A stretch of 64,000 nucleotides of DNA from Naegleria gruberi. Taxonomy: Eukaryota. Under the pieces are notes generated by a model, which did not search any database, had not been told where the DNA came from, and was given only the letters and a program-made list of their open reading frames with translations. The number at the start of each line of letters is the position of its first letter. The stretch's first letter is position 1. Of the stretch, positions 10,931-61,795 are shown piece by piece. Both the position numbers and the translations under genes were made by a program. Location: NCBI GenBank assembly GCA_000004985.1, contig GG738888.1. One strand, written 5' to 3'.

Positions 10931-11001
10931 TCGGGTGTGGTATAGTGGTAGCATTCCAGACTGTCACTCTGGCGACCCGGGTTCAATTCCCGGCACTCGA
11001 G
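10931..11001 (+). tRNA. tRNA-Asp (anticodon GTC), 71 nt
   Basis: TCGGGTGTGGTATAGTGGTAGCATTCCAGACTGTCACTCTGGCGACCCGGGTTCAATTCCCGGCACTCGAG. It has a 7-bp acceptor stem, a CCGGG/TTCAATT/CCCGG T-arm and an anticodon stem CCAGA/TCTGG with loop CTGTCAC (GTC). Confidence 0.9.
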
Positions 11002-15412: not shown

Positions 15413-15485
15413 GCTGGCGTAGCTCAGTCGGTAGAGCGTTGGTCTAATAAGCCATTGGTCGCCGGTTCGATCCCGTCCGTCAGCA
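15413..15485 (+). tRNA. tRNA-Ile (anticodon AAT), 73 nt
   Basis: GCTGGCGTAGCTCAGTCGGTAGAGCGTTGGTCTAATAAGCCATTGGTCGCCGGTTCGATCCCGTCCGTCAGCA. It has a canonical D-arm (GCTCAGTCGGTAGAGC) and an anticodon loop CTAATAA. It is close to eukaryotic tRNA-Ile-AAT. There is one C-U mismatch in the T-stem. Confidence 0.88.
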
Positions 15486-35789: not shown

Positions 35790-36857
35790 ATGAGGAAGGA
35801 AATTCTTCAAAGTAGGATTGCGGTTATTTTGAAAAAGAAAACATTATCATCATCAACAAGTGTGGAAGAAGAGACGGAGGAGAGAATAGAATCATCATAT
35901 GGAATGGAACAATATGATATTAATGATGACAAATTAATAAAAACAACAACGGATGAAATAATTATCAAGGAGGAAAGAATTTCGGAATGTAAGAAGGATG
36001 AAAATATTCCTGATAATGATGAGGAACAAGAAGAACAAACAATGGCTGAAGAAGGTGCTGCTTGTGAGGAACAAGAAGTGATTCAAGTCAAGACAGAGAA
36101 GAAGAAGCGACCTTCTCTGACAAAGGAGGAACGTTTGGAGAAGAAGAGAAAGAAATTTGAAGAAGTGAAAAGAAAAAGTGGTGAGTTGGTGGCAACTTTG
36201 GTCCTGAAAGCATTGAAAAAGAAAATGAAAAAGGAGAAGCCAGAAAGCAAGACGAAACAAAGCAAAAAACGAAGCCAAACAAGGAAGAAAGCCGAGAAGA
36301 TCAAAATTGAAGAAAAGGTCGAGGAAGACGATCGTTCAGAGGCAGAAAATACAGAAGCATTAGAAGTCAATGAAGAAGCTCAGGAATTTGATCAAGAGCT
36401 AGGAGGAATGGAATGTGGAGATTTATTGGAAGAAAAACAAGTAACAAAGCCACTTTGGCTTATTTTGATGGAAAAGATGGAAAGAGACTTGGCTCTTTTG
36501 AGTACTCAAGAAGAGGAACAAAAAGAACAAGAACAGCCAACACTTTCACCCTCACCCCCACAAGTATCACAATCACAGGAATCTCATTCGCAAGCAGAAA
36601 GTAACATTGAAGAGGATGATGAAGAAGAAATAGTATTACGAAAAACTACGGTCGAAAAGCCAAAACAAAAGAAACCTACAAACAGATCAAAAACGAAAAC
36701 CACACAAAGGAAAACAAAAGTATCCAAAGCAGCTCCCAAACGAAAGCTCGTTACCTCTGATATTCACACAAATGAAGACTATGAAAAGAATAGAAAGAGA
36801 ACAAAACAAACGAAAATCTTGAGTTTTTTTCAAAGTAATCAAGTAAGCTCTCAATAA
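35790..36857 (+). CDS. Highly charged Lys/Glu-rich nucleolar-type hypothetical protein (355 aa)
   Basis: True ATG at 35790. It has a continuous ORF with KKRKKFEEVKRK and EEDDEEE tracts. Coding status is supported only by ORF length and charged-repeat composition. Confidence 0.5.
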   Translation: MRKEILQSRIAVILKKKTLSSSTSVEEETEERIESSYGMEQYDINDDKLIKTTTDEIIIKEERISECKKDENIPDNDEEQEEQTMAEEGAACEEQEVIQVKTEKKKRPSLTKEERLEKKRKKFEEVKRKSGELVATLVLKALKKKMKKEKPESKTKQSKKRSQTRKKAEKIKIEEKVEEDDRSEAENTEALEVNEEAQEFDQELGGMECGDLLEEKQVTKPLWLILMEKMERDLALLSTQEEEQKEQEQPTLSPSPPQVSQSQESHSQAESNIEEDDEEEIVLRKTTVEKPKQKKPTNRSKTKTTQRKTKVSKAAPKRKLVTSDIHTNEDYEKNRKRTKQTKILSFFQSNQVSSQ

Positions 36858-42762: not shown

Positions 42763-45700
42763 ATGAGTAGAAATCGCAAATCCACCAACACTGAAATCAT
42801 TGAAGATGAGTCCCAATATAAAATCAAAGTCAATGATGATGTTTGGTTACCACTTTCTTCAACAGCTTCAAATACAAGTGAACCTAATACACCAACAACA
42901 CCATCCGTAGTAGATTCTGGTGCTGAAGCTTTCCAATTGGCACGTGTCGTTTCAATTGATGAATCAAAACAAACAGCAGTCTGTGAAAATTCACTTACAA
43001 AACAACAAGAAACTTTTAAATTGACTCAACTCTCACCATCAAATCCACTCAAATTAGATTATGCTTTGGATATGGCCAGTTTATCTCATTTGAATGAACC
43101 ATCTGTATTACACAACCTCAAATTGAGATATACTAGAGATGATATCTATACATATTCTGGCTTGTTCTTGTTGGCTGTAAATCCATATAAGAATTTGCCA
43201 ATCTATACAAATGAGGTGATTAAAAAACACTCTGGAAAGAGGAGAGAAGATGTTGATCCTCACATCTTTACCGTTGCTGATGTTTCCTATAGACAAATGT
43301 TGTTGAATGAGAAGAATCAATCCATGTTGGTTACAGGTGAATCAGGTGCTGGTAAAACTGAATCAGGTATGTTATTTTCAATATTCAATCAGTTTTTTTT
43401 ATATTAATATCTATTCTATTTGATTTAATTACTAATTGTATTTTTTTTACAATATTTTGTAATAATTTTTAACAAATTGTAAAATATTCAATAATACTAC
43501 AGTCAAAAAGATTATTCAATATCTTGCAACTGTTGCTGGTGCAACAAGCCACGCTTCATCAGGAGGTGGTAACTTGGAGCAAAAACTCTTACAAACCAAT
43601 CCATTGTTGGAAGCTTTTGGTAATGCTAAAACTATTAGAAACAACAATTCTTCTCGTTTTGGTAAATTCATTTCCATTGATTTTGGTCTTCAAGGATACA
43701 TTGTTGGTACTAAAATTACTCACTATCTCTTGGAAACCACTCGTGTTATTTCACAAGCTAGTAATGAACGTAACTTCCACTTTTTCTATCAAATTTTAGC
43801 CGATCCAGAATCATGTAAAAAGTACAAACTCACCTCTGGTGTTAATTCATTCCATTTTGTAAATCAATCAGGTTGTACTCACGTTCCTGGTATTGATGAT
43901 AAGAAGGAATTCCAAGATACACTCAATTCTATGCGTGTTATTGGTATTAATGAAGATGAAATTGATGCTTGTTGTAGAGTTATTGCTGCCATTCTTCATT
44001 TTGGTAATATTGAATTCAAGAATAATGAAGATGAATTGTCAACTTTGCCAGATCGTTCATGTTTGGAAGTTGCTGCTGAATTGGTTAAGGTCAATCCAGA
44101 TGGTTTAGCTAAAGGTTTCATGAAACCAGATATTATTACTCCAACTGATCGTATTGAAACTCACGTTACTGCACTTCAAGCTTCTTACAATAGAAATGCT
44201 TTGGTTAAATCAACTTACAATCGTTTGTTTGATTGGCTCGTTTCTCGTATCAATGAAAATTTGATTGCCAGAGAAAGTATCAAGAATTTCATTGGTTTGT
44301 TGGATATTGCTGGTTTTGAAATTTTCGAAAACAACAGTTTCGAACAATTGTGTATCAACTTTACTAACGAAAAATTGCAACAATTCTTCAATCATCACAT
44401 GTTCAAGAAGGAACAAGAAGAATATTTGAAGGAAAAGATTGAATGGACATTTATTGATTTTGGTTTGGACTTGCAACCAACTATTGATTTGATTGAAAAG
44501 CCATTGGGTATCTTGTCAATTTTGGACCAACAAACTTTCATGGCTCAAAAGAATGAAGCTGGTCTCGTTCGTGAAATTACCAAGAATCATGGTACTAAAC
44601 CAATTTTCGAAACTTCCAAGTTTAATGAATTGGAATTCACCTTGAAACACTATGCTGGTAAAGTTATCTATGACACCAATGATTGGTTCAAACGTAACGT
44701 TGATCCATTGAATGATGATTGTAAGAAGGCAATGCTTCAATCCTCAATTCCATTCGTTAAGGCTCTTTACAATAGAGCTTCTGATCGTGAAGAATCTTCA
44801 AACTCTGGTAAGAAGCAACAAGGAGCTGGTACTCGTTTCAAGACTGTATCTGCTCAATACAAGCAACAATTGACTGAATTGATGGAATTACTCGGCTCTA
44901 CTGAACCACACTTTATTCGTTGTATCAAACCAAACAATTTACAAAAGCCAGGTATTGTTGAAGATAACAATGTTCTCCATCAATTGAGATGTAACGGTGT
45001 CTTGGAAGGTATCAGAATTTCAAGAAAGGGTTATCCAGGTAGAATCTTGTACAAGGACTTTGTCAGACGTTATGAATTATTAGTTGAAGATCGTACCAAA
45101 TTACTCTCTGATAAGAATGCCACTGATAAGGAGAGAACCAAGGCAATTTTGGAATATATCGAATTCGAAGAAACCAAGCAATATAAACTTGGTCTCACTA
45201 AGGTCTTTTTGAAGTCCTCACAAGAAGCTGAATTGGAAAGCTTGAGAGAAGTTCAAATTTCAAAGATTATTGGTGTTGCTCAAGCTGCTGCTTTGGCTGG
45301 ATATGAAAGAGCTTGTTACAAAAAGTTACAAAGAAGATTGTTGAGTATCAAGACCATTCAAAGAAACTTCAGAGGTTATACCAAGTTGCGTGAATGGGAT
45401 TGGTGGAAGTTGTTGGCAATTGTCAAGCCACTCTTGAAGGAATTCGCTTCTGAGAAACAAACTGAAAAGTTGAAGCAAGATCTCGTTGATTTGCAAGAAG
45501 CTGTCAAGAGAGAACAAGAAGATAAGAAGAAGATTGAATTGGAAAGACAAAAGATGATTCAAGAACGTGATGTTGCCAAGGAAGCACTCAAAGCAGCTCA
45601 CAATGAATTCGAAAAGGTAACTGCTCAAGTCAGAAGTCTTGAACAAGCTGGATCTGAAAAAGATCAAAACATTCGTTCATTGAAGGATGATGGTGAATAC

Positions 45701-48700
45701 AAACAAAGCACCATCAATGATTTGAACAAAACCATTCAAAATCTTGAAGAAGCTATCAAGGTTATGAATGAAAAGATTCACAATTTGGAACAAGAAGTCA
45801 GATCTAGAGATGTCCAATTGAAACAAAAGCAAACTGATATTCAAAATCGTGAAAATGACATTGAATTTTTGAGAAAGAAGCAAAAGGAATTGGAAGGAAC
45901 TGTTTCTGAATTGGAAAACAAGTTGATCGTCGCTGGTAATGAAGTTTCAAGCAGAGATCAAAAGATCATGTTATTGGGCTGTGAATTGGAAGATGAAAGA
46001 TCAAGACTCACCTCCGAAAATAAGACTAGATCTCTTAAGGAAGAAGATTTGAGAAAGTCTGAACAAGCCAACAAGAAACTCAGCCAAGATATTGAACAAC
46101 TCCAAAAGGAAGTTGAAGATTTGACTTTGGATTTGAACAAGACCAAGGTTGAAAAGACCAATTTGATTGATGACACTGAAAGAAAGCAAAAGCAAATTGA
46201 AGAACTCAATAGAAAGCTTGAAAGTGCTCAACAATCTGCTCGTGACTTGCAATACAAGTTGGATAATGAACAACAAAACTTGAAGAGTTCTGAAACTAAG
46301 GGTAAGAGCTTGTCTGGTGATTTGGAATCTGCCACTTTGAGAATTCAATCATTGACTGAAGAAATTCAAGGTTTGGAAGAAACTGTTGCCACTCAAAAGT
46401 CTCAAATCTCTCAACTTACATCCAAGATTGCTACCTTGGAAGAAGTTGAACTCAGATCTCGTGATGCCAAGATTAGAGAACTTGAAAACAACTTGCAAGA
46501 ACAAAAGCAAAGATTTGAAAATGAACTCAACCTCAAGGTTACTGAATTGCTCAGATTGAAGCAAAAGACTGACCAAGAACGTGTTGAAGCTGAACAAGTT
46601 CAATCCAAGTTGACTCAAGAAAAGAAGGATCTCAATGAAAATGCCAAGAATCTTGAAAAGGAAATCAAGAAGCTCCAAAAGACTATTGATGCCACCAATC
46701 AAGAAAAGAATGACGTTTTGCAAAAGGCTCAAAAGTTAGATTCTGGACTCAACCAAGCCAGTGATGAAAAGGAACAACTCCAAAAGAAGGTTCAAGAACT
46801 CGAGAATACCATCAGACAACTCACTCAAGACAAGAATCGTATTGAATTGGACTTGCAATCCACCAATGAAAAGTTGGGCATGACTTCATCAAAGCTTGAA
46901 CAAGTCACCAATGAATTGAACACTGAAAAGAGACGTGCTGAAAAGCTCGAAAGCGATGTTGAAGATTTGGAAAAGGACAAGAGCTCATTGAATGATCAAT
47001 TGACTAAGGCCAGAACTGAACTCGAAAATGAAAAGTCATCCACCTTAAAGTTGAAGGGCGAACAACAAAAGTTGGCCAACGACATTGAAAATTCCAAGTT
47101 GGAAAAGGTCTCCTTGTCAAAGGATAAGGATGAACTCAACTTTGAATTGAACAGATTGAAGGAAAGATTAACTCAACTCGAAAAGGAGAAGGAAAATGAA
47201 GCTTCCGAAAAGTCTCAAGCTCAAAAGAAGGCTACTTCATTGGCTAAGGAAATTGAAAAGCTCCAACAACGTATTGGTGAATTGGAAAATTCAGTCAAGT
47301 CTGAACAATCATCCAAGAGTGAAGTTGAAGGTGATGCCAAGAAGAAGGACTCAGCTCTCAAGGAAGCTAATGAAGAAATCTCTCATTTGAAGAGCAAGTT
47401 GACTGCTGTTCAACAAGAACACGAATTGGCTAAACGTCAAGTTGATGAAGAAGTCAGAAAGGCTGCTCAAATCAGAAATGAACTCAAGGACGTTCAACTC
47501 AAATCTAAGGATGCTTCTGCTGAAAGAGATGATTTGGAAGATGAAATTTCCAAGTTGACTTCTGAAATCAATGAATTGAACTTGAAGCTCCAAGATGCTG
47601 AAAGAAAGACTTCTGACGAACAAAGAAATGCTCAACAACTCGAAGAAGAAATTGAAAGAATTCGTCAAAATGCCTCCAGATCCAGAGAAGAAGTTGAAAA
47701 TGACAATAGACTCTTGAAGCAACAAATGACCTCTCTCACTCAACAAAGTGAAGGTTTTGGTCGTGAACTCAACGATCAAATTCTCAAGTTGAAGCAAGAA
47801 AACTTAAAGCTCAAGAAGGATTTGAAGAATGCCAAGAAGGAAACTCAACCAACTGATGCTGTCGATTCTCAATTAGTTGAAGGTTTGAAGAGAAAGTACG
47901 AAATTGAAGCATCCAACCTCAAATCACAAATTGAACAATTGAGTCTCTTGAAGCACAATTTGGATAACAAGAATATCACAATTGAACAAGAAAACTTGTT
48001 ACTCAAGGCCAGACTCGAAACTGAAGAAAAGCTCAAGAATAAGTTCAAGTCTCAAAAGGAACATGCCGAAAGAGAAATTGATGAATTGAGAAGTATTGCT
48101 GAAGAAACTGAAGATTTGAGAGATGAATTGATCAAGATGAGATCTGAATACCAATTAACCATTAGCAAGTTGCAATCTGAACTTTCTGATGAAAAGGAAA
48201 GATATAACACTTTGGATAAGGTTCTCTTACAAACTCGTAAGGATTTGGATCAAGTTAAACTCGATTTGGTTAGTGAACGTAAAAAGTTGGATCTTGGAAG
48301 TCTTTCTGCCAAGCAACATTACGAAATGGAAATGGCCAATCTCAATCAACTTATCCAAGAATTGAGAAAGGACAAGGTTGACTTGGTCAAGCAAGAAAAG
48401 AAGACTGCTCAAAAACTTGCCGATTTGAAACGTGATTTGCAAGAAGAAATTTCATCCAAGCAAGAATTTGAAAAGAGAGCTTCCAAAGCTGAACGTGAAT
48501 CTCGTTTGTCCAACTTGAATTTACAAGAAAGTGAAACCAAGTATAGACGTGTTGAATCTGAAAAGAAGAGACTTGAATTGGAAGATACCATGAATCGTGA
48601 TCAAATCAAACAACTTGAAAATGAAATTGATAGTTTGAGAACTCAATTGAGACAAGAAAAGATCAAGTCTTCTGCCAAGACTGAAAAGAAGAAGAGAAAG

Positions 48701-48817
48701 AATCAAGTCAAGAAGGTTCTTGCTGATTTGGAAGATGATTTGCAAAGTGGATTATTGAAGGAAGATGATGAAACTGTTGCTGCTGATTCATCTGCTCCAG
48801 TTGAAGCTGAAGAATAA
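42763..48817 (+). CDS. mhcA: Myosin II heavy chain (conventional myosin), 2 exons, ~1972 aa
   Basis: True ATG at 42763 (the track start at 42706 is not ATG). Exon 1 (42763..43366) ends inside the P-loop GESGAGKTES. The 136-nt AT-rich intron at 43367..43502 runs GTATGT...TACAG. Exon 2 (43503..48817) continues VKKIIQYLATVAG. It contains LEAFGNAKTIRNNNSSRFGKF, FNHHMFKKEQEEYLKEKIEWTFIDFGLD, IQ motifs, and a >1100 aa heptad-repeat coiled-coil tail. The head is most similar to Dictyostelium mhcA. Confidence 0.92.
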
Positions 48818-51412: not shown

Positions 51413-53836
51413 CTACAGTGTATCAACAACATCCCTCTTTCTATTTTGTGCAAAGAACAAATTCCTATGGAGTGTAACTTCATTTCGTTCAACAATGAAA
51501 CTCTTCTTGACCACCAACAAGGAATTCGATTGAGAGATAATTTCTTCTACTGAACATTTGCTTGGTTTGATCACAAACTCTTCGAGTGCTAGTGATTTCT
51601 TCGTGGTTCCTCTTGTTACTTGCTTGTAAAGAGGGGTGTGAATATTTGGATAGTTTTCTTTGAATTCATTGAGTAGGTCGAGTGCTGTCTTTCCTCTGGA
51701 ATTTTTCACAATGTCAAATTTCAATCCTCTTGCAATTAAAATGCTCATAACGTCCTCTAGAGCATAATGTGTTTTGCTCAAGATTTGTTGAGTGCATAAT
51801 CGAATGAGAAAATGTGAAATGTCGTCTCCCTCCTCTCCACCATACCATTGAAATCCTCCTGTTATTCTTGGAATATTTGAACTTTCTAATTTGAAATGAA
51901 TTGAATTATCCTTATTAAGAATAGTAATGTGAATAAGCTTGGGATGATTTTCGGTTGAGTAATCAAATCCAATTACGTTAGCATCTGATTTTAAATGTCT
52001 TTCGTCTTTTGATTTTAGTAAGAAATACATTATTCTGTTGAAACCTAAATTATCAAAGTAACCAGAAATGTTGATCGTAGGAGATTCGTTCCATTCAGCA
52101 ATAGAGGATAATAAATCTCTGTATAAATTAGTGCAGGAGTGAAGAAGAAAGGTACCATTATGATCTGGTGTCAGTAATATTTCTTCAGCTGATAAATTTG
52201 GAAGTACATTTTGTATGTCCAAATAATCAAACTTTGTAAAATAATGAATTAAATGCTTTCCATTTCGATCTCTGTAATCAATGTCTTGGTAAATTGAATA
52301 ATCAATTGTTGGATTAATTACTCCGGCTACTGCATAAAGAATAGCCAAATCAACTTCAAATCCATCCAATAATTTAAATGATCGAATACCATTAATTAAT
52401 TTCTCTATAGATTTAAAATGAAATATTTTAGTGAGTGGCTGGAATTTGAAATGATTCCATTCATTGGCAACAGCTATTTCTACTGGAGTTAATCCAAAAT
52501 TATTTTCTTCTTGTTCCAATTTATACAAAATATCATTGGGAATGTTTTTGGAAAATTGAGTGTCAGAATAAGTAAAATAATTAGAGCTGTTTCTATTATT
52601 TGTAAAAAAGTAGTGTAAAAAGTTGTTTCCATAAATATCCTTCATCATTATTTGTTGTAAAGTCATTGGTTTATCTTGGTTCTTTTGCATTAAAGGTGTC
52701 ACACCAAATACATCAGGGTTATCCAACGTGTCAAAACAAGAGGTTAAACCCAAATACGAAAAGCAATACTTTCCAATTTTGCTAAATCTGTTGACGAGTT
52801 CAGATTCACTTATTTCATCAGTGGGAAATAGTATACATCTTTTTACATCAAATTTAATAAATGGATATTTGTCAAGAATTTTCAATTGTTCCAACACTAT
52901 CCCCTTAACAATAAAAATTTTAAATTCTGGATATTTCAAATAAATTAGACATAAAATATCCAAAATGTTGTTACTCAGTCCTCCGGAAAATATAGATAAT
53001 ACTATATTCCAATAATGTTCAAAATATCCAATATCAATATCAATATTGTTAATGATGAATTTACAAGTATCAATTCTCTGAAAATATATTGAATAGGCAA
53101 GGATTATTTCTACATGAAATGGTCTCTTTCCCATTAATTTTGAAGCTTTTTTCAAGTATTCAATTTCTTCCATTTCTGTAGGAAAATTAGCACCAATACT
53201 TCTTGGAGCAAGTCCTCCAGATTCCATGAATAAATTTTGTTCATAAATACATGAGATGGTGCTTTGAACTAATGGATAATTCGAAACTAAATATTTCACA
53301 TTTTTAAATATCTTTTTTAATGGAATATTTCCTCCTCTCTTAGTCCAATAATTCTTTCCAAATGGAGCAAAACAGCTCACATACACCACTCTATCAAAAA
53401 CATTTTCATATCTTGTCTTGATTCTTTCCAATACTTTGTGTACATAATTATTATCTTGCAAACACTCCTCCGTATACAGGTTTTGGACACTCCTAATCAA
53501 TGTAAGAGATTCAAAATACGATCTATCAATTGGATATCTTGCCCAATTCTTCTTGTCTCCATTAATCATTTGTAGTTTAATTTCCATCGGTTGAAACGAC
53601 ACAAAGGCTTCATAAAAAGATTTACAAGTAATACACAGTGGTTCCCAAGAGTTGTATTCCGATAATCCATCATCCGAATACTCCAAATCCATCACCTCAT
53701 TAAAATCATCAATTTCCCATCCACGAACATTTGTAAAATCCAACACTGCTAATTTTCGAAGTCGGAAAATATCACGAAAATAATCCAAGTAACTGAAAAT
53801 GTGATGAAGGTTTTCGGGTGGAAGTTTGTTAATCAT
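51413..53836 (-). CDS. F-box-like N-terminus plus ankyrin-repeat-like hypothetical protein (~807 aa)
   Basis: Real ATG at 53836 (MINKLPPENLHHIFSYLDYF, F-box-like); the track start at 53872 is TTG. It has an 800-aa uninterrupted ORF with several ankyrin-like G-(x)-TPL/FLH segments (GVTPLMQ, GNNFLHYF, GLTPVEIAV, GKHLIHYF, GTFLLHSC, GKTALDLL). Confidence 0.6.
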   Translation of the reverse strand: MINKLPPENLHHIFSYLDYFRDIFRLRKLAVLDFTNVRGWEIDDFNEVMDLEYSDDGLSEYNSWEPLCITCKSFYEAFVSFQPMEIKLQMINGDKKNWARYPIDRSYFESLTLIRSVQNLYTEECLQDNNYVHKVLERIKTRYENVFDRVVYVSCFAPFGKNYWTKRGGNIPLKKIFKNVKYLVSNYPLVQSTISCIYEQNLFMESGGLAPRSIGANFPTEMEEIEYLKKASKLMGKRPFHVEIILAYSIYFQRIDTCKFIINNIDIDIGYFEHYWNIVLSIFSGGLSNNILDILCLIYLKYPEFKIFIVKGIVLEQLKILDKYPFIKFDVKRCILFPTDEISESELVNRFSKIGKYCFSYLGLTSCFDTLDNPDVFGVTPLMQKNQDKPMTLQQIMMKDIYGNNFLHYFFTNNRNSSNYFTYSDTQFSKNIPNDILYKLEQEENNFGLTPVEIAVANEWNHFKFQPLTKIFHFKSIEKLINGIRSFKLLDGFEVDLAILYAVAGVINPTIDYSIYQDIDYRDRNGKHLIHYFTKFDYLDIQNVLPNLSAEEILLTPDHNGTFLLHSCTNLYRDLLSSIAEWNESPTINISGYFDNLGFNRIMYFLLKSKDERHLKSDANVIGFDYSTENHPKLIHITILNKDNSIHFKLESSNIPRITGGFQWYGGEEGDDISHFLIRLCTQQILSKTHYALEDVMSILIARGLKFDIVKNSRGKTALDLLNEFKENYPNIHTPLYKQVTRGTTKKSLALEEFVIKPSKCSVEEIISQSNSLLVVKKSFIVERNEVTLHRNLFFAQNRKRDVVDTL

Positions 53837-55047
53837 TTTTTTTTGTAATTCGTCTTTAAAAAAATACAACAACTGTTTGAGGGAAACAGTTAGCGTCTTT
53901 GGCTAGAGGCCAGGTGCTAGCAGCACAGAGGTTGATCAACTACCAAAACTTGAGCATCGGGTTTAGAAGTCAGAGCAAATCGCGTACTCATATTAGCATG
54001 GAGGGTAATATAGTACAACTACCTTACGGTTCAAAGGTTTAAAGTAGATTTGGGTTGATCAATATGGGCAAAAATAAAATAGCTAAGGTAATAGGAGAAG
54101 TGGAGAGTAATGATTTAATTATGAAAAGAATTTGAATGTATTGTAAAACGAAAACACATTGGTTCGTTGATATTGGTGAAGAATTAATTATTAGCATAAG
54201 ACTTCCTGGTTAACTCTTATAACATCTTTATTAAGTGTATTCCTATTTATGGATAATCAAAAGGTTTAGTTTCGTTCCAAATCAAGCTTGAAGGCTAGGC
54301 GATAACTCCAATGTCTCTACAAAAGTCCCCTTCATTTTAAATAATGATGTATCTGTGAAAGAAGCGCTGCTTCCTGCGAACTGTTTACAATTGGAGATCA
54401 TTGACTTCACGTCTTTGAAGCAGGAATCTGAATAGATTCGTATTGTAAACGTAATAAAACATTACCAGATTTTTTTTTGTAATTTTTAAAGCTGCATTAT
54501 TTAAAGTTTCAATGTTATTAAAGAATTCGAAACTTAGTGTCAAGATTGAATTCTTTTATTAAGGGATTAACATCACTTGTTGAGTGGTGATTTCCATGAT
54601 TGAGAAGATGGAAAGTGTAACTTTAGTTTTTCAGCATTTGTCTGAACAAAAGTTTTTACAAAAGAGAGTTCTTCCCATTATTGACCAAGAGGTCTACACT
54701 TTTGGAAATGAGTAAAGAATAGAATAGCAGAGACGAAACCGTCATTGTCATACATTGGAACAACTGGTAAAAGAGTCAAACTTCTCTTTGTCATTGTTGG
54801 ATGATTTAGTAAATTGATAGGATATTTGTTGAGCTTGTGTTTCTGTGAGTGGAATCTCAACAGGTCTTTGACTATATCTAAATCAAACGATCACCAATTA
54901 AACCTCCAGAATGATCAAAAGCTCCAGAACATGCAAAGGAAGGATCACGAGTTGCAGTTTCAATTTGATTGCACAACAGAAACAATCAAGACTATTAGCA
55001 AACTGATGGTCTATTACAATGAGTTTACTATTTTACAATTAATTTAC

Positions 55048-56406
55048 TTATCTAATCCACAACCATCCCATCATGACACCATTAATAGGCATTGGGAGTG
55101 GGTTGTAATAACGGTAGTAATAAAAACCACTACCCTTACCATGAGGTTTTCCATCATAGGAACCACACATTGTCAGACAGTCAATACCTATACCAATCCT
55201 ACCATCTACAGTATCAGAAGTATCACCATCAGAAGAAAAACCAACTCTGATCTTGGATCCAAAGGAATCTTCACCTAGAGCATTGATATAACCAAATCTG
55301 TACCAATAGGCTGCCTTGTAATCGTAAGGAAGAGATCTCCATATACCAAGTGGCTTCTTATTAATTGGTTGAGTACCACAATTTGTTTGAGGTTCACATG
55401 TTGAAGTAGACATGTTGGTGGCATAGGATTTCATCATTCCATTGTTGGCAATCAAATTTCTGGCAGTATCGTACGAATGACTCCAAGAATTGTAATTTTC
55501 TAATGAATTCATAGCAAGTCTAGATTCTCTTCCTGCTAATTTATAAAAGAGAGGTGAGATGTAATCTTCATTGGCTGTAATATTTGTGAATGGTAATTTT
55601 TGTGTTCCTAAAAAGGATAAATCATTTGCAGTCCACATTGCATGGTCATACACGAAAGGAGAAGAAGTACTGGTTTTCATAATAAGAGTCCAACCACCTC
55701 CCATACTTTCCATATCACAATAAGCAGTGTAAATTGTTGGTCCAACATTGATTTGATATAATCCACTTCCTTCTCCATTGTAAGCATATGGCAGAGTTGG
55801 ATATCTGTATCCATAACATGATGTTGCTGTTGTTCCATCAGCAAAGGTTCTTCCCAAAATTGGATCATTAATTGTTGACATGTTTGAACAACTTGAGCCA
55901 CTAAACGATGTGAAACATAGACAATTATTGGATGAAATGCAAGTTCCATGTCCAGAGCAAACGGTTGGTGAATTGGCTGGAACACCATAGCATTCTACAG
56001 GAATATCACAATTTTCTCCTAAATATGTTGAACATTGAGCAGAGAGAATACTAATTTCTGATGAGAGCATCGACCGAGCAGACTCCTTCACTCGTAATTG
56101 ATGTTCTCTTTGAGCAATTTGCTCCAATAGCTTTGTATCATTTGCTTGCTTGAGAAATTCTATACCCTTTGAAATTTTAGCAATCGAGCATGAAAGAATA
56201 TCTTCTTCCTTTTGTTTGTCCTTAATATATCCCCTTAATCCGCATCCCTCACTCTCAGTATTTGTACATTTAGTTGTTGTTGGTGATGAGTGTACCACAT
56301 TCCCTCCCAAGAGACATGTCGCTAATATTACCAGAGAAAGAAGAAGCAGCGCAACTGCTTTTCTTCTTGAAATGATTGTCTTCTTCCTAGATGCTGGACA
56401 AAACAT
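55048..56406 (-). CDS. Secreted protein with a tenascin-type EGF module followed by a fibrinogen-related (FReD-like) domain, 452 aa
   Basis: True ATG at 56406, followed by a signal anchor (AVALLLLSLVILATCLLG) and a coiled segment. The EGF module is CYGVPANSPTVCSGHGTCISSNNCLCFTSFSGSSC. Next comes the FReD core CYGYRYPTLPYAYNGEGSGLYQINVGPTIYTAYCDMESMGGGWTLIMKT, matching the fibrinogen C-domain signature (VYCDM..GGGWTV[F/I]Q). The C-terminal half is divergent and lacks the classic NCA..GGWW. Confidence 0.6.
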   Translation of the reverse strand: MFCPASRKKTIISRRKAVALLLLSLVILATCLLGGNVVHSSPTTTKCTNTESEGCGLRGYIKDKQKEEDILSCSIAKISKGIEFLKQANDTKLLEQIAQREHQLRVKESARSMLSSEISILSAQCSTYLGENCDIPVECYGVPANSPTVCSGHGTCISSNNCLCFTSFSGSSCSNMSTINDPILGRTFADGTTATSCYGYRYPTLPYAYNGEGSGLYQINVGPTIYTAYCDMESMGGGWTLIMKTSTSSPFVYDHAMWTANDLSFLGTQKLPFTNITANEDYISPLFYKLAGRESRLAMNSLENYNSWSHSYDTARNLIANNGMMKSYATNMSTSTCEPQTNCGTQPINKKPLGIWRSLPYDYKAAYWYRFGYINALGEDSFGSKIRVGFSSDGDTSDTVDGRIGIGIDCLTMCGSYDGKPHGKGSGFYYYRYYNPLPMPINGVMMGWLWIR

Positions 56407-56621
56407 TTCAAACAGGTGCTTGTTTCTTTTGGTATTTTTTTACGTTTTTGAAAAGCTCCTTTACGCCTTAGTGTAATCTATTAAATTTTTCCCAGATAAT
56501 TTTCCTATGATCGTTTTGGAAAACAGTAGAAATTTGTTTACGGCCGAACGTTCAATCTCCCAATGGAACGACTCAATAGAAATAGTCCTAATGGTTATTA
56601 TTTCAAATAAACTTAGAATAT

Positions 56622-57227
56622 TTATTTGAAAATAATAAATTTTCCTTTAGGATTTGATTTTCTAAATTCAATTTCTTCAAACTTGTTGTATGAAAATCTC
56701 ACTCGATAGTTTGGTTTATCCTTTTTTTGTTTCCTTTTCTTTGAAATCTTATTCTTAAATAATGAGCTTTCTGGTTGATGAAAAGGGACGCAAAATGGAG
56801 CGTTTTCAATACGCGAAACTGGTTTCATATTGAGATCTATTTCTTCTTGTTGATTATTAGATATTATGATGTTGTTACAGACACTAGGGGAGCATTCATT
56901 AGAGGTTTGAGATGAAGGATTGGTTTGGAATAGAAATTCGTTTGGATTTGAATGGCAAGACAATTTGCTCCACACCAAGCCCAATGTAGATGGTACATTC
57001 CTCAATTCGAGGTCAATTAATTTGTCAATGTAATTTTCATCGAGAGTAATTCTTGTTGTTATTTGTGTTTCTATTATTACAGAACTTGAACTACTTGAAT
57101 TACTTGTACATGTGGATAATTCTGGCTCTTGGAGAAGGTTCATGCACTCACATGCTTTTATCCAAGAATACATGCCCAAAGCTGTATTGTTGTTAAATGG
57201 ATAAACATGTTCCTGGTTTGTTATCAT
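56622..57227 (-). CDS. Hypothetical protein (201 aa)
   Basis: ATG-initiated ORF (ATG at 57227), Ser/Asn-rich with a basic C-terminal KKRKQKKDKPNYR. No family is recognised, and coding status is weakly supported. Confidence 0.35.
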   Translation of the reverse strand: MITNQEHVYPFNNNTALGMYSWIKACECMNLLQEPELSTCTSNSSSSSSVIIETQITTRITLDENYIDKLIDLELRNVPSTLGLVWSKLSCHSNPNEFLFQTNPSSQTSNECSPSVCNNIIISNNQQEEIDLNMKPVSRIENAPFCVPFHQPESSLFKNKISKKRKQKKDKPNYRVRFSYNKFEEIEFRKSNPKGKFIIFK

Positions 57228-58433
57228 GTTGGTAGTTGACTTTAGGTTGTTTTTTTGATAGGTGTTAAGGAATTCCTTTGACCATTGTGGAGTATCGGTT
57301 TAGGTATGTGTGAACCTGGCAAAAATGGTCACTAAGAACGCGACATGGTTTTTAACATGATGTACAATAACTGAAATTGGTGTGCAAACTTGTTTCAGTC
57401 AAACCACACTCACTATCTCAACTCATAGATACTAATTGATCACTTTTCATAAAGGAACATATCTCCAACTACTAATAAATGTGGTTGTTTTACAATTATT
57501 GAAATAGCGATTCTTTCATGTTGTTGAGTATCCAAAGTTTCCGAATTGACTCTTCCAAACGGATACAAATATTAAACTATGGAACAAGTTGCTATTCCAA
57601 TACTGATTACTATGATAAACCATTATGATAACGGAGAATGGAATTAAACTAATGGCATTGATTGATTGCATGTACAACAATGGATAAACAGCTCTTGCAT
57701 ACACATCCAAAATATAATGTGCATCTATATCTGACATGGTCTTCAAGCTGGGTGTACACTAAATAATTATTTTCAAAGAAAATTATTTACGTTGTAGATG
57801 ATAACATGATAATTTGGACAATGTCCAAACTTTCCTTCTAGTTACCACGGGGTACACAACATGATGAAAAACAGTTCAGCGCCATTTTTTCAAAACAAAA
57901 TAATAAAAATCTTCATCACAACAGTGCTTTGTTATTACTTGGCCAAATGTTTGTTGCTTGTGGAGGACACGGAATCTTCAACCTTTCCGAATTGAAATAT
58001 ATTAAATTTAAAAAGGCATTGAAATGATAACTAATTGTGAATGAAAGAATTGAAAAGGAAAGAACTCAACCAATCATATTAATATTTTCAATGTACTGAT
58101 GAAGAGTGTAAAACAGGTCTCGATGCTTCATTATTGTTATGACTTTATGAATGGATCATTGGTCGTTTAAGGAAATGTACCACTGAATGATATAATACAA
58201 TCCAAGGATGGTCAAACGCAAACAAAGATCAAACACAAACAAAATATGATAGGAATGAAATGTTGGGTTGCAACAGCAGCGAATCAAACAATTCAAGGGT
58301 TTACATTGTACAATAATCGTACGATATATCACCCACTACAGTGCTCTAATTAGGTAATACGATGAGGAAATTACCAGTAGGTATGCTTCAATATTAAGCA
58401 AATCATCTTTAAAAAAATTAAGAACAATTAACA

Positions 58434-61400
58434 ATGATTAAGGCTAGAAGTAACTCTTCCCTCATTGTTGGTTTGGTGTTGATGTGCATGATTGCATTCT
58501 TGAGCGTTTATGCAAATGCTCGTAGAGGTGGTGGTGGAGGTGGAGGAGGAGGAGGAGGTGGTGGTGGTAGATCAGCACCAGCTGCTGCTCCAGTTTACAG
58601 AGCACCTACACCAGTTTACACACCAGTGTATAGAGCTCCGCAACCAGTTTATAGAGCTCCACAACCAGTGTACAGAGCTCCACAACCAGTATATAGAGCT
58701 CCAACTCCAGTTTATAGAGCTCCACAACATGTTTCAAGACCTACATCAGTTTATAGACCAGCTTCACAACCAGTTTCAAGACCTGTTACTAGATCTGCTT
58801 CTAAACCAGCTGCTGCCAACAAATTTGTTGCTACAAGGACATTAACTATTGGAAAGATGGCAGTTCACCACCACCACAAGCATGGTAAGCATCACCATCA
58901 TCACCACCACAAGCATGGAAAACATCATGATGGAAAGGATGGTAAGCATCACCATCACAAGCATGGTAAGCATCATCACCATCATCACCACCACCACAAG
59001 CATGGTCATGGAAAGGATGGTAAGCATCATCACCACCATCATCACCATAAACATGGCCATGGTGGATCTTCTGGCTCAACATCTGCTGGTTCCTCTCCTG
59101 TAATGGCAACTTTTGGTAGTGCATCCTCCAGGGGTATCTCACCAGTCAGATCAGTCTCAGTTTCAAATAAGAACGAACGTATTAGTGCTCCAGTTAAATC
59201 ATATAGAAGTGCTATTAAGTCTACTACAGAAAAGAGTACCAATGGTTCTAAATCATCTGTGTCAGTAAAGAGCCTCTCTGCAGGCAAAGGAAAGGAAAAA
59301 GCTCCAACTAAAAAGAATAACTCTCCTTCAGTTCGTAAGCAAAATAACAAATCTTCAACTAGTAAGAAAGATACTAAGGGAGATTCAAAAAAGCCAACTA
59401 CTCAAAAGGATACTAAGAAGAATATTAAGAAAGATAACAAGAAAGATAACAAGAAAGATACCAAGAAAGATGCTAAGAAGGATGCCAAGAAGGGTACTAA
59501 GAAAGATAACAAGAAGGTCAAAGATTCAAAGCCAAAGAAAACCACCGAAAGTGATGCGGATGATTTTTCTTACGGAACTGATGAAAGCTCCTCTCAACCA
59601 CAATACATCCCAGTTGAAAGTGCTCCAGTTGTAAGTGGTGACGAATACGTTGCACAAGTTGCTTCTATTCCTCAAAGAACTTTAGAAATTGAAGAAACTC
59701 CTGTAGTTTTTAGCAACCATGCCTTGCAAGTTAAACAATTTGATACTCCTACAGATGAAGAAGCTCTAGTTCAAAAGAAATCAAATAAGATTGACTCTGA
59801 TGACGAAGAAGTTCCAGTTCAAAAGAAATCTAAGATTGAATATGATGAAGAAGTTCCAGTAAAGAAGTCAAAGAACATTGATTATGAGGAAGAAAATCCA
59901 GTAAAGAAATCTAAGATTAAATCTTATGATGAAGAAGCTCCAGTTCAAAAGAAATCTAAGATTGAATATGATGAAGAAGTTCCAGTAAAGAAGTCAAAGA
60001 AAATTGAATCTGATGAAGAAGTTCCAGTTCAAAAGAAATCAAAGAAGATTGAATATGATGAAGAAACTCCAGTAAAGAAATCAAAGAAAATTGATTATGA
60101 TGAAGAAACTACAAGAAAGAAATCTAAGAAGATTGAATATGATGATGAAGAAGTTCCAGTAAAGAAGTCAAAGAAAATTGAGTATGATGAGGAAGAAAAT
60201 CCAGTAAAGAAATCTAAGATTAAATCTTATGATGAAGAAGCTCCAGTTCAAAAGAAATCTAAGATTGAATATGATGAAGAAGTTCCAGTAAAGAAATCAA
60301 AGAAAATTGATTATGATGAAGAAACTACAAGAAAGAAATCAAAGAAGATTGAATATGATGATGAAGAAGTTCCAGTTCAAAAGAAATCAAAGAAGATTGA
60401 ATCTGATGAAGAAGTAATTCCAAGAAAGAAATCAAAGAAGACTGAATACGATGAAGAAGAAAATCCAGTTTCTTCTATTCCTCAAAGAAAGAGATCAAAG
60501 AAGACTGAATCCGATGAAGAAGCTCCAGTTCAAAATAAATCCAACAAGTCAAAGAAGATTGAATCTGATGAAGAAGAAGCTCCAGTTCAAAAGAAATCAA
60601 AGAAGATTGAATATGATGAAGAAACTCTAGTAAAGAAATCAAACAAGACTGAAACTGATGAAGAAACTCCAAGAATGCAATTTAGTGAAGAAACAATGTC
60701 AATCAAGAAGCAATCAGTCAATACTCCAGAAATTCAAGTAGAAGAGGAAGAAGAATCTGAACAAGTTTCAGCCAAGTCAAATAATTCAAAGAAATCTGGA
60801 AAGAAACATGTTGCCAAGAAACAACCTGTGGAAGATTTAGAAATTGCTCCAAAACAAAGTGCTTCAAAGAAATCAGGAAAGAAGTATGGGAAGAAATCTG
60901 CTAAGAAGTATGGAAAGAAATTAAAGAAATATGGAAAGACATCTGAAAAGAAATTAAAGAAATCAAAGAAATCTGGAAAGAAGCATGGAAAAAAGAAATC
61001 TGGAAACAAGTTTGGAAAGAAATCAAAGAAATCTGGAAAGAAATCAAAGAAGTCAGGAAAGAAATCAAAGTCTAAGAAGTATGGAAAGAAGCATGGAAAG
61101 AAATCTAGAAAGAATAAGAAGTATGGAAAGAAATCAAAGCCAAAGAAGAAGTATGGAAAGAAATCAAAGAAGTCAGGAAAGAAATCAAAAAGAAATCTGG
61201 AAAGAAATCAAAGAAATCAGAAAAGAAATCAAAGAAGTCAGGAAATAGTAAGAAGTATGGAAAGAAATCTGAAAAGAAATCTGAAAAGAAATCAAAGAAA
61301 TCTGGAAAGAAATCTGGAAAGAAATCAAAGAAATCAGGAAAGAAATCAAACAAGAAATCTGGAAAGAGGGTAATTAAAAGGATTCCTATCAAGTCAAACA

Positions 61401-61795
61401 ATTCTGGAAAATATACACCTCAACCAGTTGGATTGCCTTATTCAAGATGGTATAAACAAAGAATCAATAGACTTGCTCCTCAATCAGTTACTCAATTCCA
61501 ACCTATCATCCAACCAATGGCCCAACCAATTGTCGCAATGACCACTTCACCAGTTGTGATCAAGCCACAAATTACTCCACAACCAACTATTGTTAACACT
61601 CCAACAGCTTCAGTAGCTCAAAGACCACAATCAGCAAATGGAGCAATGAATATTCAAAACATTGATATCAATATCGCAACCAATCCACAAGCTCCATCTA
61701 TCGCCAAACCAACTCCAAACATTGAATTGATTAGAAGACTTTTGGCTCAAAGAAGACAACAAGCTCAACAAAATCTTATTCCAATACAAAATTGA
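58434..61795 (+). CDS. Large secreted low-complexity protein (Gly-run, PVYRAPQ repeats, His-rich HHKHGK repeats, 18 tandem 13-aa KKSKKIEYDEEVPV repeats, KKSGKK C-terminal repeats) with an apparent frameshift near 61192
   Basis: True ATG at 58434, with a signal peptide MIKARSNSSLIVGLVLMCMIAFLSVYANA. The ORF in frame 1 runs to 61373. Around 61186-61200 an A-run (tcaaaaagaaatctgg, where the repeat elsewhere reads tcaaagaaatctgg) shifts the KKSGKKSKK reading into the RNLERNQ frame. The original frame continues in ORF 61433..61795 (...SGKRVIKRIPIK...PYSRWYKQRINRL...LIPIQN). This is most parsimoniously one gene with a homopolymer indel or a true frameshift. Confidence 0.6.
58590..58730 (+). repeat. 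Tandem 21-nt repeat encoding (PVYRAPQ)x6
   Basis: ccagtttatagagctccacaa units are repeated with minor variation. Confidence 0.85.
58861..59060 (+). repeat. His-rich repeat tract encoding HHHHKHGKHH(D/H)GKDGK units
   Basis: Repeated caccaccac / aagcatggtaagcat units. The antisense frames give spurious poly-M/V ORFs (58842..59060, 58846..59142). Confidence 0.85.
59764..60660 (+). repeat. Tandem in-frame minisatellite, ~18 copies of a 39-42 nt unit encoding KKSKKIEYDEE(V/A/T)PV(Q)
   Basis: Near-identical units (aagaaatcaaagaa[g/a]attgaatatgatgaagaagttccagt[a/t]...) are visible directly. Variant units encode IESDEE, IDYDEETTR, and IKSYDEEAPVQ. Confidence 0.9.
60770..61370 (+). repeat. Tandem 18-24 nt repeats encoding KKSGKK/KKYGKK
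   Basis: gaaagaaatcaaagaaatctg-type units. They read as KKSKKSGKK in one frame and ERNQRNLER in another. The frameshift at ~61192 lies inside this tract. Confidence 0.85.

What the first reader, a model, noticed from the sequence alone, without database searches (positions are those of the whole stretch)
58434..61795. Giant secreted Gly/His/Lys-rich repeat protein; reading frame broken inside an A-homopolymer (61186-61200)
A single gene appears to encode a signal peptide, a (G)15 run, (PVYRAPQ)6, a His-rich (HHHHKHGKHH)n block and 18 tandem 13-residue KKSKKIEYDEEVPV repeats. These are followed by KKSGKK repeats and a Pro/Gln-rich tail. The frame switches at tcaaaaagaaatctgg, where the consensus unit reads tcaaagaaatctgg. 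After that point the same repeat is read as RNLERNQ for 60 codons to a stop at 61373, while the original frame stays open to 61795. This is either an assembly or sequencing indel in a homopolymer, or a real frameshift polymorphism or pseudogenisation of a rapidly evolving repeat protein. The His-rich block suggests metal binding (Zn/Ni/Cu), and the architecture resembles extracellular matrix or spore-coat-like structural proteins.
Basis: seen in the sequence. Interest (0 to 1): 0.5.

Follow-up and report, generated by a model that had tools for sequence, protein, structure and literature searches.

The report
Orphan Naegleria repeat-protein gene, one frame break
This is a real but unannotated gene of the amoeba Naegleria gruberi for a long, floppy, probably secreted protein built of simple repeats, and its reading frame is interrupted once at a run of five A's, by either a very recent mutation or a sequencing error, so it is a modest curiosity.

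Summary
ORF 58434-61373 (979 codons, frame 0) carries a signal-peptide-like N-terminus, G14, PVYRAPQ repeats, a His/Lys/Gly block, about 20 units of 13-16 residues (KKSKKIEYDEEVPV) and a KKSGKK/KKYGKK array. Repeat anchors are all in phase 0 before the A5 run at 61187-61191 (27/27) and all in phase 2 after it (19/19). Frame 2 stays open to 61795. Removing 2 A or adding 1 A gives one protein of 1119 or 1120 aa.

The window is Naegleria gruberi NEG-M. No protein model of this gene exists among 1.84 billion representative proteins. It has no Pfam family and no homologue, so it is an orphan. AlphaFold2 predicts it almost wholly disordered.

A metagenome contig from a second N. gruberi-like strain carries the N-terminal 522 codons as an open frame. 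Its His block is 41 residues longer, and all coding indels are in frame.

Codon usage and openness downstream of the break still look translated. An intron, programmed frameshifting and an independent downstream gene are all poorly supported. Real frameshift allele versus consensus error cannot be settled here, because that contig stops before the break. Function, proposed as a secreted metal- and polyanion-binding matrix or adhesive polyelectrolyte, is inferred from composition only. Interest is low to moderate.

The parts
58434..58520 (+). Start codon and signal-peptide-like N-terminus (aa 1-29: basic n-region, hydrophobic core aa 9-27, A-N-A|RR)
   Evidence: Only hydrophobic 19-mer in the protein (Kyte-Doolittle mean 2.43). 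AF2 helix at aa 7-27. In-frame stops lie just upstream. No formal signal-peptide predictor was available.
58527..58568 (+). Run of 14 glycine codons
58590..58790 (+). PVYRAPQ heptad array (6 good units plus degenerate ones)
   Evidence: Third-codon-position diversity is 0.36 against 0.08 at positions 1 and 2. Among units, 34 codon differences are synonymous and 8 are not. This indicates constraint at the protein level.
58866..59060 (+). His/Lys/Gly block (HHHHKHGK-type), length-polymorphic between strains
   Evidence: 41 His in 69 aa here; 68 His in 110 aa in strain-2 contig L002, through in-frame insertions of 3, 111 and 9 nt.
59061..59771 (+). Ser/Thr/Lys-rich region with (K-D-x-K)n 12-nt repeats (59406-59516) and a unique acidic segment (59547-59771)
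   Evidence: Codon-usage log-odds are +0.50 in frame 0 against -0.47 and -1.23 in the other frames.
59772..60674 (+). About 20 tandem units of 13-16 residues, consensus (Q)KKSKKIEYDEE(E)VPV; includes a 303-nt higher-order duplication (59881-60020 against 60184-60323, 97% identical)
   Evidence: All unit spacings are multiples of 3 (42, 45, 48, 54, 63).
60786..61186 (+). Lys-rich KKSGKK/KKYGKK array, part read in frame 0
   Evidence: All anchors are in phase 0. Codon log-odds are best in frame 0.
61187..61191 (+). A5 run: the single point at which the repeat phase moves from frame 0 to frame 2
   Evidence: Deleting 2 A gives an uninterrupted 1119-aa protein; adding 1 A gives 1120 aa.
61192..61366 (+). 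Continuation of the Lys-rich array, now coding in frame 2. In frame 0 it reads RNLERNQ... to TAA 61371-61373.
   Evidence: All anchors are in phase 2. Codon log-odds are +0.56 in frame 2, +0.21 in frame 0 and -0.39 in frame 1.
61367..61795 (+). Pro/Gln/Ile-rich tail of 142 aa in frame 2 with a predicted terminal helix (NIELIRRLLAQRRQQAQQN) and stop TGA 61793-61795
   Evidence: Open for 140 codons in 5 of 20000 shuffles. Codon log-odds are +0.43 against -0.28 and -0.41. AF2 gives pLDDT 75-87 only for the last helix. Frame 2 has no ATG, GTG or TTG between 61118 and 61433.

Best explanation
What it is. This is one taxon-restricted (orphan) protein-coding gene of Naegleria gruberi. It appears to be unannotated. 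Its functional form is a protein of about 1,120 aa. That protein enters the secretory pathway through an N-terminal signal peptide and is otherwise an almost fully disordered, modular polyelectrolyte.

Modules, in order:
- G14
- a PVYRAPQ array
- a His/Lys/Gly block
- a Ser/Thr/Lys-rich segment
- an acidic linker
- about 20 polyampholyte units (KKSKKIEYDEEVPV)
- a polycationic KKSGKK/KKYGKK array of about 190 aa
- a Pro/Gln-rich tail ending in a short helix

The frame break. In the reference sequence the frame is interrupted exactly once, at A5 61187-61191. The cause is either a one-base loss (A6 to A5) or a two-base gain (A3 to A5). Everything downstream still has the repeat phase, codon usage and openness of translated sequence. 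The lesion is therefore either non-biological (a consensus or assembly error in a repeat of a heterozygous diploid), or confined to one allele, or very young.

My split:
- about 50% consensus or assembly error
- about 35% real frameshift, allelic or fixed, giving a 979-aa product with a 60-residue off-frame end
- the remainder to the rivals listed below

Likely mode of action (inferred from composition only). The protein is a secreted or surface-retained matrix or adhesive material. The Lys arrays would bind polyanions. The His block would bind Zn, Ni or Cu, or titrate with pH. The alternating K/E units would keep the chain extended. The arrays expand and contract by unequal recombination or slippage.
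For: Shown here:
- Organism. Six window ORFs are exact matches to N. gruberi NEG-M proteins.
- One gene, one break. The phase test gives 27/27 anchors in phase 0 before the run and 19/19 in phase 2 after it. Only the spacings across the break are not multiples of 3. Either correction gives a continuous 1119- or 1120-aa protein.
- Coding. PVYRAPQ units differ mainly at third positions, 34 synonymous against 8 nonsynonymous. Codon log-odds favour frame 0 before the break and frame 2 after it, tail included. The tail is open in 5 of 20000 shuffles.
- Second strain. ENA contig L002 carries the first 522 codons as an open frame. All 5 coding indels are multiples of 3, against 1 of 4 in the adjacent intergenic DNA. 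Substitution density is 4/1402 in the coding part against 14/1441 in flanking non-coding DNA, p = 0.03.
- Disorder. AF2 mean pLDDT is 38, with 862 of 979 residues below 50. The tail scores 57.
- Orphan status. No Pfam hit even at E <= 5. Nothing at E <= 1e-3 in the word-indexed search. The best hit among 1.84e9 representatives is E = 1.7e-18, and the hits inspected were compositional. There is no self-hit either, so no annotated model of this gene is in that library.
- Assembly quality. 99 homopolymers of 5 nt or more sit inside 28.5 kb of intact ORFs, most of them Pfam-supported. All six other ORF-to-ORF junctions examined are introns, not frameshifts.
Against: - No read-level, transcript or peptide evidence was available, so error versus real mutation is not decided.
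- The low indel rate elsewhere in the window argues against a routine homopolymer error. Five A's is not a hard run for Sanger chemistry.
- The four confident substitutions between strains are all nonsynonymous. That fits weak amino-acid constraint and would also suit a decaying gene.
- The signal peptide was judged by hydropathy and the AXA rule, not by a trained predictor.
- The proposed function rests on composition alone.
Confidence: 0.55

Rival explanations
1. The frameshift is real and fixed in NEG-M. The gene now makes a truncated 979-aa protein that ends in 60 off-frame RNLERNQ-type residues, or it is a very young pseudogene.
For: - No other frame error occurs in 28.5 kb of intact ORFs holding 99 homopolymers of 5 nt or more.
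- The arrays are demonstrably unstable between strains.
- All 4 substitutions between strains are nonsynonymous.
- No protein model exists for the locus.
Against: - Downstream sequence shows no decay. All 19 anchors are in one phase, the tail is open (5 of 20000 shuffles) and codon usage looks coding.
- The N-terminal half is intact and more conserved than its flanks in a second strain.
- Neither point excludes a very recent event.
Confidence: 0.3
2. A spliceosomal intron (best candidate 61151-61248, 98 nt, GTATGG...AAATAG) removes the break, giving a 1087-aa protein that keeps the lysine-repeat phase.
For: - The candidate has GT-AG ends and a length inside the 41-136 nt range of the six verified introns of the window.
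- Its AAATAG acceptor is the type seen in real introns.
- Removing it restores one open frame.
Against: - T content is 12%, against 36-51% in all six verified introns.
- The donor has G, not T, at position +6; it is T in 6 of 6 real introns.
- The candidate has almost no stop codons, and its interior is made of the same repeats in codon phase.
- The phase break lies inside it, which an old intron would not predict.
- GTATGG arises six times simply from the K-K-Y-G codons.
- The 1087-aa product is not in the protein collection.
Confidence: 0.05
3. Programmed -1 ribosomal frameshifting or transcriptional slippage at the A run yields both a short and a long product.
For: A -1 shift on AAA (61188-61190) would move frame 0 to frame 2 and read S-K-K-K-S-G, a variant that exists in frame at 60985.
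Against: - The site C_AAA_AAG_A is not an X_XXY_YYZ heptamer.
- The 109 nt downstream fold no better than shuffles (-6.6 kcal/mol, z = +0.49).
- By general knowledge, five A's is too short for efficient polymerase slippage.
- No orthologue is available to show conservation of the site.
Confidence: 0.03
4. 61433-61795 is an independent small gene, and the 979-codon ORF is complete as it stands.
For: A 120-codon ORF with a TTG start, or 90 codons from an ATG, can be drawn there.
Against: - Frame 2 is coding-like and repeat-coherent from 61192 onwards, upstream of any start codon.
- Frame 2 has no start codon between 61118 and 61433.
- Neither small product is on record anywhere.
Confidence: 0.02
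5. This is not a gene at all: a non-coding minisatellite region that happens to be open.
For: - Extreme low complexity.
- No homologue and no annotation.
- Repeat slippage alone yields indels that are multiples of 3 when the units are.
Against: - Eight compositionally different modules share one frame for 2.75 kb in 34% GC DNA.
- An ATG with a signal-peptide-like start lies right after in-frame stops.
- Variation among PVYRAPQ units is biased to third positions.
- Host-like codon usage in the non-repetitive parts.
- Lower substitution density than the flanks in a second strain.
Confidence: 0.05

Closest known systems
Plasmodium falciparum knob-associated histidine-rich protein (KAHRP); comparison from my own knowledge
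   Same: An N-terminal export or signal sequence, then a poly-His block, then lysine-rich tandem repeats. Largely disordered. Acts by electrostatic binding.
   Different: No sequence relationship was detected (no Pfam family; no significant homologue). The organism is a free-living heterolobosean. This protein has extra PVYRAPQ, polyampholyte and Pro/Gln modules.
Marine adhesive and structural repeat proteins (mussel foot protein 1 decapeptides, His-rich byssal preCol and Mfp-4 domains, Nereis jaw Gly/His protein); comparison from my own knowledge
   Same: Secreted, with Pro/Tyr/Lys short tandem repeats, Gly runs and His-rich metal-binding blocks. Modular low-complexity build.
   Different: Analogy by composition only. 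There is no evidence here for DOPA, cross-linking or metal content. This protein also has long K/E polyampholyte and KKSGKK arrays not typical of those proteins.
Small signal-peptide proteins with (A/P)PQPVY(V/Y)AP repeats, and cuticle-type APSYKAP repeat proteins, found by the exhaustive search (P0146, P0149, P0155, P0156, P0134)
   Same: Signal-peptide-like start followed by PVY-type Pro/Val/Tyr heptad or octad repeats. Identity is 45-68% over aa 10-120.
   Different: E-values reach only 1e-9 to 1e-4 and cover the repeat only. Those proteins are 100-390 aa and share none of the other modules. This is convergent low complexity, not orthology.
K/E-rich tandem-repeat proteins such as P0129 (EEAPVKKKKAKK units), P0132 (ESDDEAPKKSKKKV units) and Entamoeba KERP1 (the last from my own knowledge)
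   Same: Alternating Lys and Glu/Asp blocks with a Pro-Val hinge. Composition is similar (K 24%, E 19% in the 14-aa array).
   Different: Matches are confined to the repeat (E = 2e-10 to 9e-9), with no shared unique sequence. KERP1 is small and helical, whereas this array is predicted disordered.

Membership tests
Programmed -1 ribosomal frameshift site | Slippery heptamer X_XXY_YYZ in the zero frame | tested here: not met
   Frame-0 codons are TCA AAA AGA (61185-61193). The heptamer A_AAA_AGA fails the YYZ rule.
Programmed -1 ribosomal frameshift site | Stable downstream RNA structure (hairpin or pseudoknot) 5-9 nt after the site | tested here: not met
   61192-61300 folds at -6.6 kcal/mol, z = +0.49; 136 of 200 shuffles fold at least as well.
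Programmed -1 ribosomal frameshift site | Conservation of site and overlap in orthologues | not testable with these tools
   No orthologue exists in any searched collection. The strain-2 contig stops at about 60003.
Spliceosomal intron of the N. gruberi type (six verified in this window) | GT...AG ends, length 41-136 nt, and removal restores the frame | tested here: met
   Candidate 61151-61248 is 98 nt and gives an open 1087-aa product.
Spliceosomal intron of the N. gruberi type (six verified in this window) | Donor GTAxGT, T-rich interior (36-51% T), stops in all frames | tested here: not met
   The candidate donor is GTATGG, T content is 12%, and stop counts in the three frames are 0, 0 and 1. 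The six verified introns are described.
Secretory (type I) signal peptide | Basic n-region, hydrophobic core of 7-15 or more residues, small residues at -3 and -1 | tested here: met
   K3 and R5; core aa 9-27 (Kyte-Doolittle 2.43, the only such stretch); A27-N-A29|R; AF2 helix at aa 7-27. No trained predictor was run, and a signal anchor is not excluded.
Unitary (decaying) pseudogene | Disabling lesion plus secondary decay downstream (further stops, out-of-phase indels, loss of codon bias) | tested here: not met
   There is one lesion only. Downstream phase, openness and codon usage are intact. A very young pseudogene is not excluded.
Unitary (decaying) pseudogene | Neutral substitution pattern between strains | tested here: inconclusive
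   4 nonsynonymous and 0 synonymous changes in 1402 nt, but density is three times lower than in the flanks, p = 0.03. The comparison covers only the part upstream of the break.
Any curated protein family (Pfam-A, including His-rich, cuticle and chitin-binding families) | Match to a family profile | tested here: not met
   0 families at E <= 0.01 for both ORFs, and 0 at E <= 5 for the corrected protein.
Intrinsically disordered low-complexity protein | No predicted fold; strongly biased composition | tested here: met
   Mean pLDDT 38, pTM 0.32. The tail scores 57. Composition is K 21%, S 12%, E 8%, with a single Cys and a single Trp.
Metal-binding His-rich protein | Demonstrated binding of Zn, Ni or Cu | not testable with these tools
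   Only composition is known: 41 His in 69 aa here, 68 in 110 aa in strain 2.

The most novel reading that the evidence does not exclude
The A-run break is a real, segregating switch. Slippage in the homopolymer or lysine array would toggle a hypervariable secreted His/Lys-rich coat or matrix protein between a full-length form with the Pro/Gln tail and a truncated form with an Arg/Glu-rich helical end. That would give a free-living amoeba a repeat-driven, phase-variation-like way to vary an extracellular protein, on top of the length variation of the His block already seen between strains.
Probability: 0.06. Interest if true: 0.55.

Novelty: new member of a known kind. Interest (0 to 1): 0.22.

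Why it matters
The practical gain is in annotation. A gene of about 3.4 kb with a signal peptide appears to be missing from the N. gruberi protein set, probably because of its low complexity and the frame break. A neighbouring EGF/fibrinogen-like gene seems to be missing as well.

Biologically, this is a clear case of a lineage-restricted, tandem-repeat, disordered, probably secreted protein whose arrays change length between closely related strains. If it proves to be a component of the cyst wall, surface coat or adhesive, the His and Lys arrays would be a simple system for studying metal- or charge-mediated extracellular assembly in Heterolobosea.

The frame break alone has little importance until reads show whether it is real.

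Tried and rejected
- Exact-product look-ups of window ORFs in the gene-position index failed. They turned out to be uninformative. That index holds no positions for the N. gruberi reference: P0122 is in the protein collection but is 'not on record' there.
- The word-indexed homology search with the corrected protein found nothing. Its 8000 candidate slots were probably filled by low-complexity sequences.
- The myosin search, meant to identify the organism, gave only 45-56% identities to proteins under 1000 aa. The organism was identified instead by exact cluster look-ups.
- Two JGI metagenome scans, with the tail and with the middle region, found no relative.
- The window holds no paralogue. 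Only compositional matches to the myosin coiled coil and ORF 35790-36857 appeared.
- Guessed products were absent from the protein collection: the 979-aa ORF, the 1087-aa intron model, the 120-aa tail and the spliced myosin.
- Attempts to reach a strain-2 contig covering the break through the neighbouring Sel1 gene failed.
- Literature searches for Naegleria cyst-wall, histidine-rich or repeat secreted proteins, and for PRJEB11402, found nothing relevant.
- Intron, programmed frameshift, independent tail gene and non-coding minisatellite were each considered and ranked low, for the reasons given under the rival explanations.
- AF2 gave high confidence (pLDDT up to 91) to a helix in the off-frame RNLERNQ stretch. 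I treat this as a generic response to Glu/Arg-rich repeats, not as evidence that the frame is used.
Full report
**1. The observation**

- An ATG at 58434, just after in-frame stops, opens a frame-0 ORF of 979 codons ending at TAA 61371-61373.
- The modules, in order, are:
  - a signal-peptide-like start (basic n-region, the protein's only hydrophobic stretch at aa 9-27, then A-N-A|RR)
  - 14 Gly (not 15)
  - a PVYRAPQ array (58590-58790)
  - a His/Lys/Gly block (58866-59060; 41 His in 69 aa)
  - a Ser/Thr/Lys-rich region with K-D-x-K repeats
  - a unique acidic segment
  - about 20 units of 13-16 residues with consensus (Q)KKSKKIEYDEE(E)VPV (59772-60674)
  - a KKSGKK/KKYGKK array (60786-61366)
  
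- The frame change is real and happens exactly once. Anchors GGAAAGA and AAATCN are 13/13 and 14/14 in phase 0 before 61187, and 6/6 and 13/13 in phase 2 after 61191.
- The only repeat spacings that are not multiples of three are those that cross the break.
- The break is an A5 run at 61187-61191. The 14-mer TCAAAGAAATCTGG occurs four times in the array. The variant with five A's occurs once.
- Deleting two A's gives a continuous 1119-aa protein; adding one gives 1120 aa. Both repairs are plausible, because an in-frame A6 variant (G-K-K-K-S-G) exists at 60985.

**2. Is it a gene, and one gene?**

- Among PVYRAPQ units, diversity sits at third codon positions (0.36 against 0.08). Synonymous codon differences outnumber nonsynonymous ones 34 to 8.
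- I built a codon-usage log-odds table from eleven other ORFs of the window, most of them Pfam-supported. It favours frame 0 in every module up to the break. After the break it favours frame 2, both in the rest of the lysine array (+0.56) and in the Pro/Gln tail (+0.43 against -0.28 and -0.41).
- The 140 tail codons stay open in only 5 of 20000 shuffles.
- Frame 2 has no start codon between 61118 and 61433. An independent tail gene is therefore unlikely.

**3. Where the window comes from**

- The neighbours are eukaryotic: myosin II heavy chain, ABC transporter, hybrid histidine kinase, inositol polyphosphate kinase, GH2 mannosidase, protein kinase, F-box, Sel1, DUF4476 and an EGF/fibrinogen-like protein.
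- Six window ORFs are exact matches to Naegleria gruberi NEG-M proteins (EFC41037, 41105, 41106, 41108, 41112, 41120) on a 351,708-bp scaffold.
- An exhaustive phmmer search of the 979-aa ORF against 1.84 billion representatives found nothing better than E = 1.7e-18, and no self-hit. That library is drawn from the same collection as the N. gruberi proteins. The reference protein set therefore apparently has no model for this locus.
- The hits inspected are compositional: PVY-repeat small secreted-type proteins, a cuticle-type APSYKAP protein and K/E-rich repeat proteins.
- Pfam gives nothing even at E <= 5. The word-indexed search, two JGI metagenome scans and a search within the window also found no relative or paralogue.
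- The gene is an orphan.

**4. A second strain**

- The annotated 201-aa neighbour (56622-57227, NAEGRDRAFT_71159) has a cluster mate on a 3742-nt contig of ENA metagenome assembly ERZ929261.
- That contig (L002) aligns to window 56246-60003. It carries a called gene, cut by the contig end, of 522 residues. This is the N-terminal half of the target.
- Against the window, the coding part has 4 substitutions in 1402 nt. Well-aligned flanking non-coding DNA has 14 in 1441 nt (p = 0.03).
- All five coding indels are multiples of three (3, 111, 9, 3, 123 nt). Only one of four intergenic indels is (41, 27, 1, 1 nt).
- The His block is 110 aa with 68 His in that strain, against 69 aa with 41 His here.
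- All four substitutions are nonsynonymous, so constraint on individual residues looks weak.
- In-frame indels are partly expected from slippage of units that are themselves multiples of three, so they are weak evidence for selection.
- The contig ends inside the acidic array, where 140-nt copies are 97-100% identical. It does not reach the break.

**5. Alternatives for the break**

- *Intron.* N. gruberi has introns, and I verified six in the window by restoring conserved or open frames. They are 41-136 nt long, have GTAAGT, GTAGGT or GTATGT donors, end in ATAG or ACAG, and contain 36-51% T. A formal candidate at 61151-61248 (98 nt, GTATGG...AAATAG) would keep the lysine phase and give 1087 aa. 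However, it has 12% T and a G at donor position +6. It is built from the same in-phase repeats as its flanks, and the phase break lies inside it.
- *Programmed -1 frameshift.* The site is not an X_XXY_YYZ heptamer, and the downstream RNA folds no better than shuffles (z = +0.49).
- *General assembly quality.* 28.5 kb of intact ORFs in the window contain 99 homopolymers of 5 nt or more, 29 of them 6 nt or more, without any frame error. Every other pair of adjacent collinear ORFs I examined is joined by an intron, not a frameshift. A routine homopolymer error is therefore not expected a priori.
- *Why an error is still plausible.* A tandem array in a heterozygous diploid is where consensus errors concentrate. 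Naegleria is described as a heterozygous diploid in PMC9928731.
- *Real lesion.* If real, it must be very young, because nothing downstream has decayed.
- *My estimate.* About 50% error, 35% real (allelic or fixed) and 15% for all else.

**6. What the protein probably does**

- AlphaFold2, run on single sequences, predicts disorder almost throughout. Mean pLDDT is 38, with 862 of 979 residues below 50.
- The predicted helices are the signal core, a short one at aa 823-833, the off-frame RNLERNQ stretch (which I regard as a generic Glu/Arg-repeat artefact) and, in the tail, one at RWYKQRINRL and one at NIELIRRLLAQRRQQAQQN.
- Computed pI is 10.0. Composition is 21% Lys, with one Cys and one Trp. 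There is no second hydrophobic segment.
- By inference only, the protein is a secreted or surface-retained polyelectrolyte. The Lys arrays would bind polyanions. The His block would bind divalent metals or act as a pH switch. The K/E units would act as an extended spacer. The Tyr-bearing repeats are candidate cross-linking sites.
- The nearest analogies, from my own knowledge, are Plasmodium KAHRP and marine adhesive or structural repeat proteins. None is a relative.

**7. Verdict**

- The new findings are the organism, the orphan and unannotated status, the exclusion of the more exotic explanations, and the second-strain evidence for an intact, length-polymorphic N-terminal half.
- This is a new member of a familiar kind: a lineage-specific, tandem-repeat, disordered, probably secreted protein. 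Interest is low to moderate.
- The decisive test is simple: count the A's in NEG-M reads and in ERR1078381 reads across 61150-61230.

Noticed in passing
window 55048-56406 (-): A 452-codon ORF with a signal-peptide-like start and weak EGF and fibrinogen-C matches has no exact or near match among N. gruberi reference proteins. Its best hit is a 98%-identical 359-aa protein from ENA metagenome ERZ929261; the next hits are 35-45% identical, one of them from Willaertia magna. It is probably another unannotated gene.
   Followed up: partly
L001 (2535 nt) and L002 (3742 nt) against window 53259-60003: ENA metagenome assembly ERZ929261 (run ERR1078381, PRJEB11402) contains a second N. gruberi-like strain, 96-99% identical in DNA to this region. 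L001 lacks about 620 nt that the window has between 53850 and 54469. The intergenic stretch 57734-57875 differs by 41-nt and 27-nt indels.
   Followed up: partly
window 43367-43502 (+), 22001-22045 (+), 33754-33794 (+), 16872-16919 (-), 14528-14571 (-), 28620-28698 (-): Six short spliceosomal introns (41-136 nt; GTAAGT, GTAGGT or GTATGT donors; ATAG or ACAG acceptors; 36-51% T). They join adjacent ORFs of the myosin II, histidine kinase, protein kinase and GH2 genes and of two unnamed genes. They are useful as a local splice-site reference.
   Followed up: yes
window 42763-48817 (+): The myosin II heavy chain, spliced with the one intron I found, gives 1972 aa. This exact product is not in the protein collection, so the reference model may differ. 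The best motor-domain identities to listed proteins are only 45-56%.
   Followed up: partly
window 61192-61370, frame 0: The off-frame translation of the lysine array (RNLERNQRNQ...) is predicted by AlphaFold2 as a long helix with pLDDT up to 91, while the true frame is predicted disordered. High confidence on charged repeats does not show that a frame is used.
   Followed up: no
window 59881-60020 and 60184-60323: A 303-nt higher-order duplication, seven units long and 97% identical, lies inside the acidic repeat array. It implies recent unequal exchange and probably explains why the short-read contig L002 ends there.
   Followed up: partly
window 6527-6607 (-), 10931-11001 (+), 15413-15485 (+): Three nuclear tRNA genes (Leu-CAA, Asp-GTC, Ile-AAT) lie between protein-coding genes.
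   Followed up: no
window 56622-57227 (-): NAEGRDRAFT_71159 (201 aa, no Pfam family) is identical in the second strain except for a one-codon insertion, whereas the flanking non-coding DNA differs by about 1%. This small orphan appears to be conserved.
   Followed up: partly
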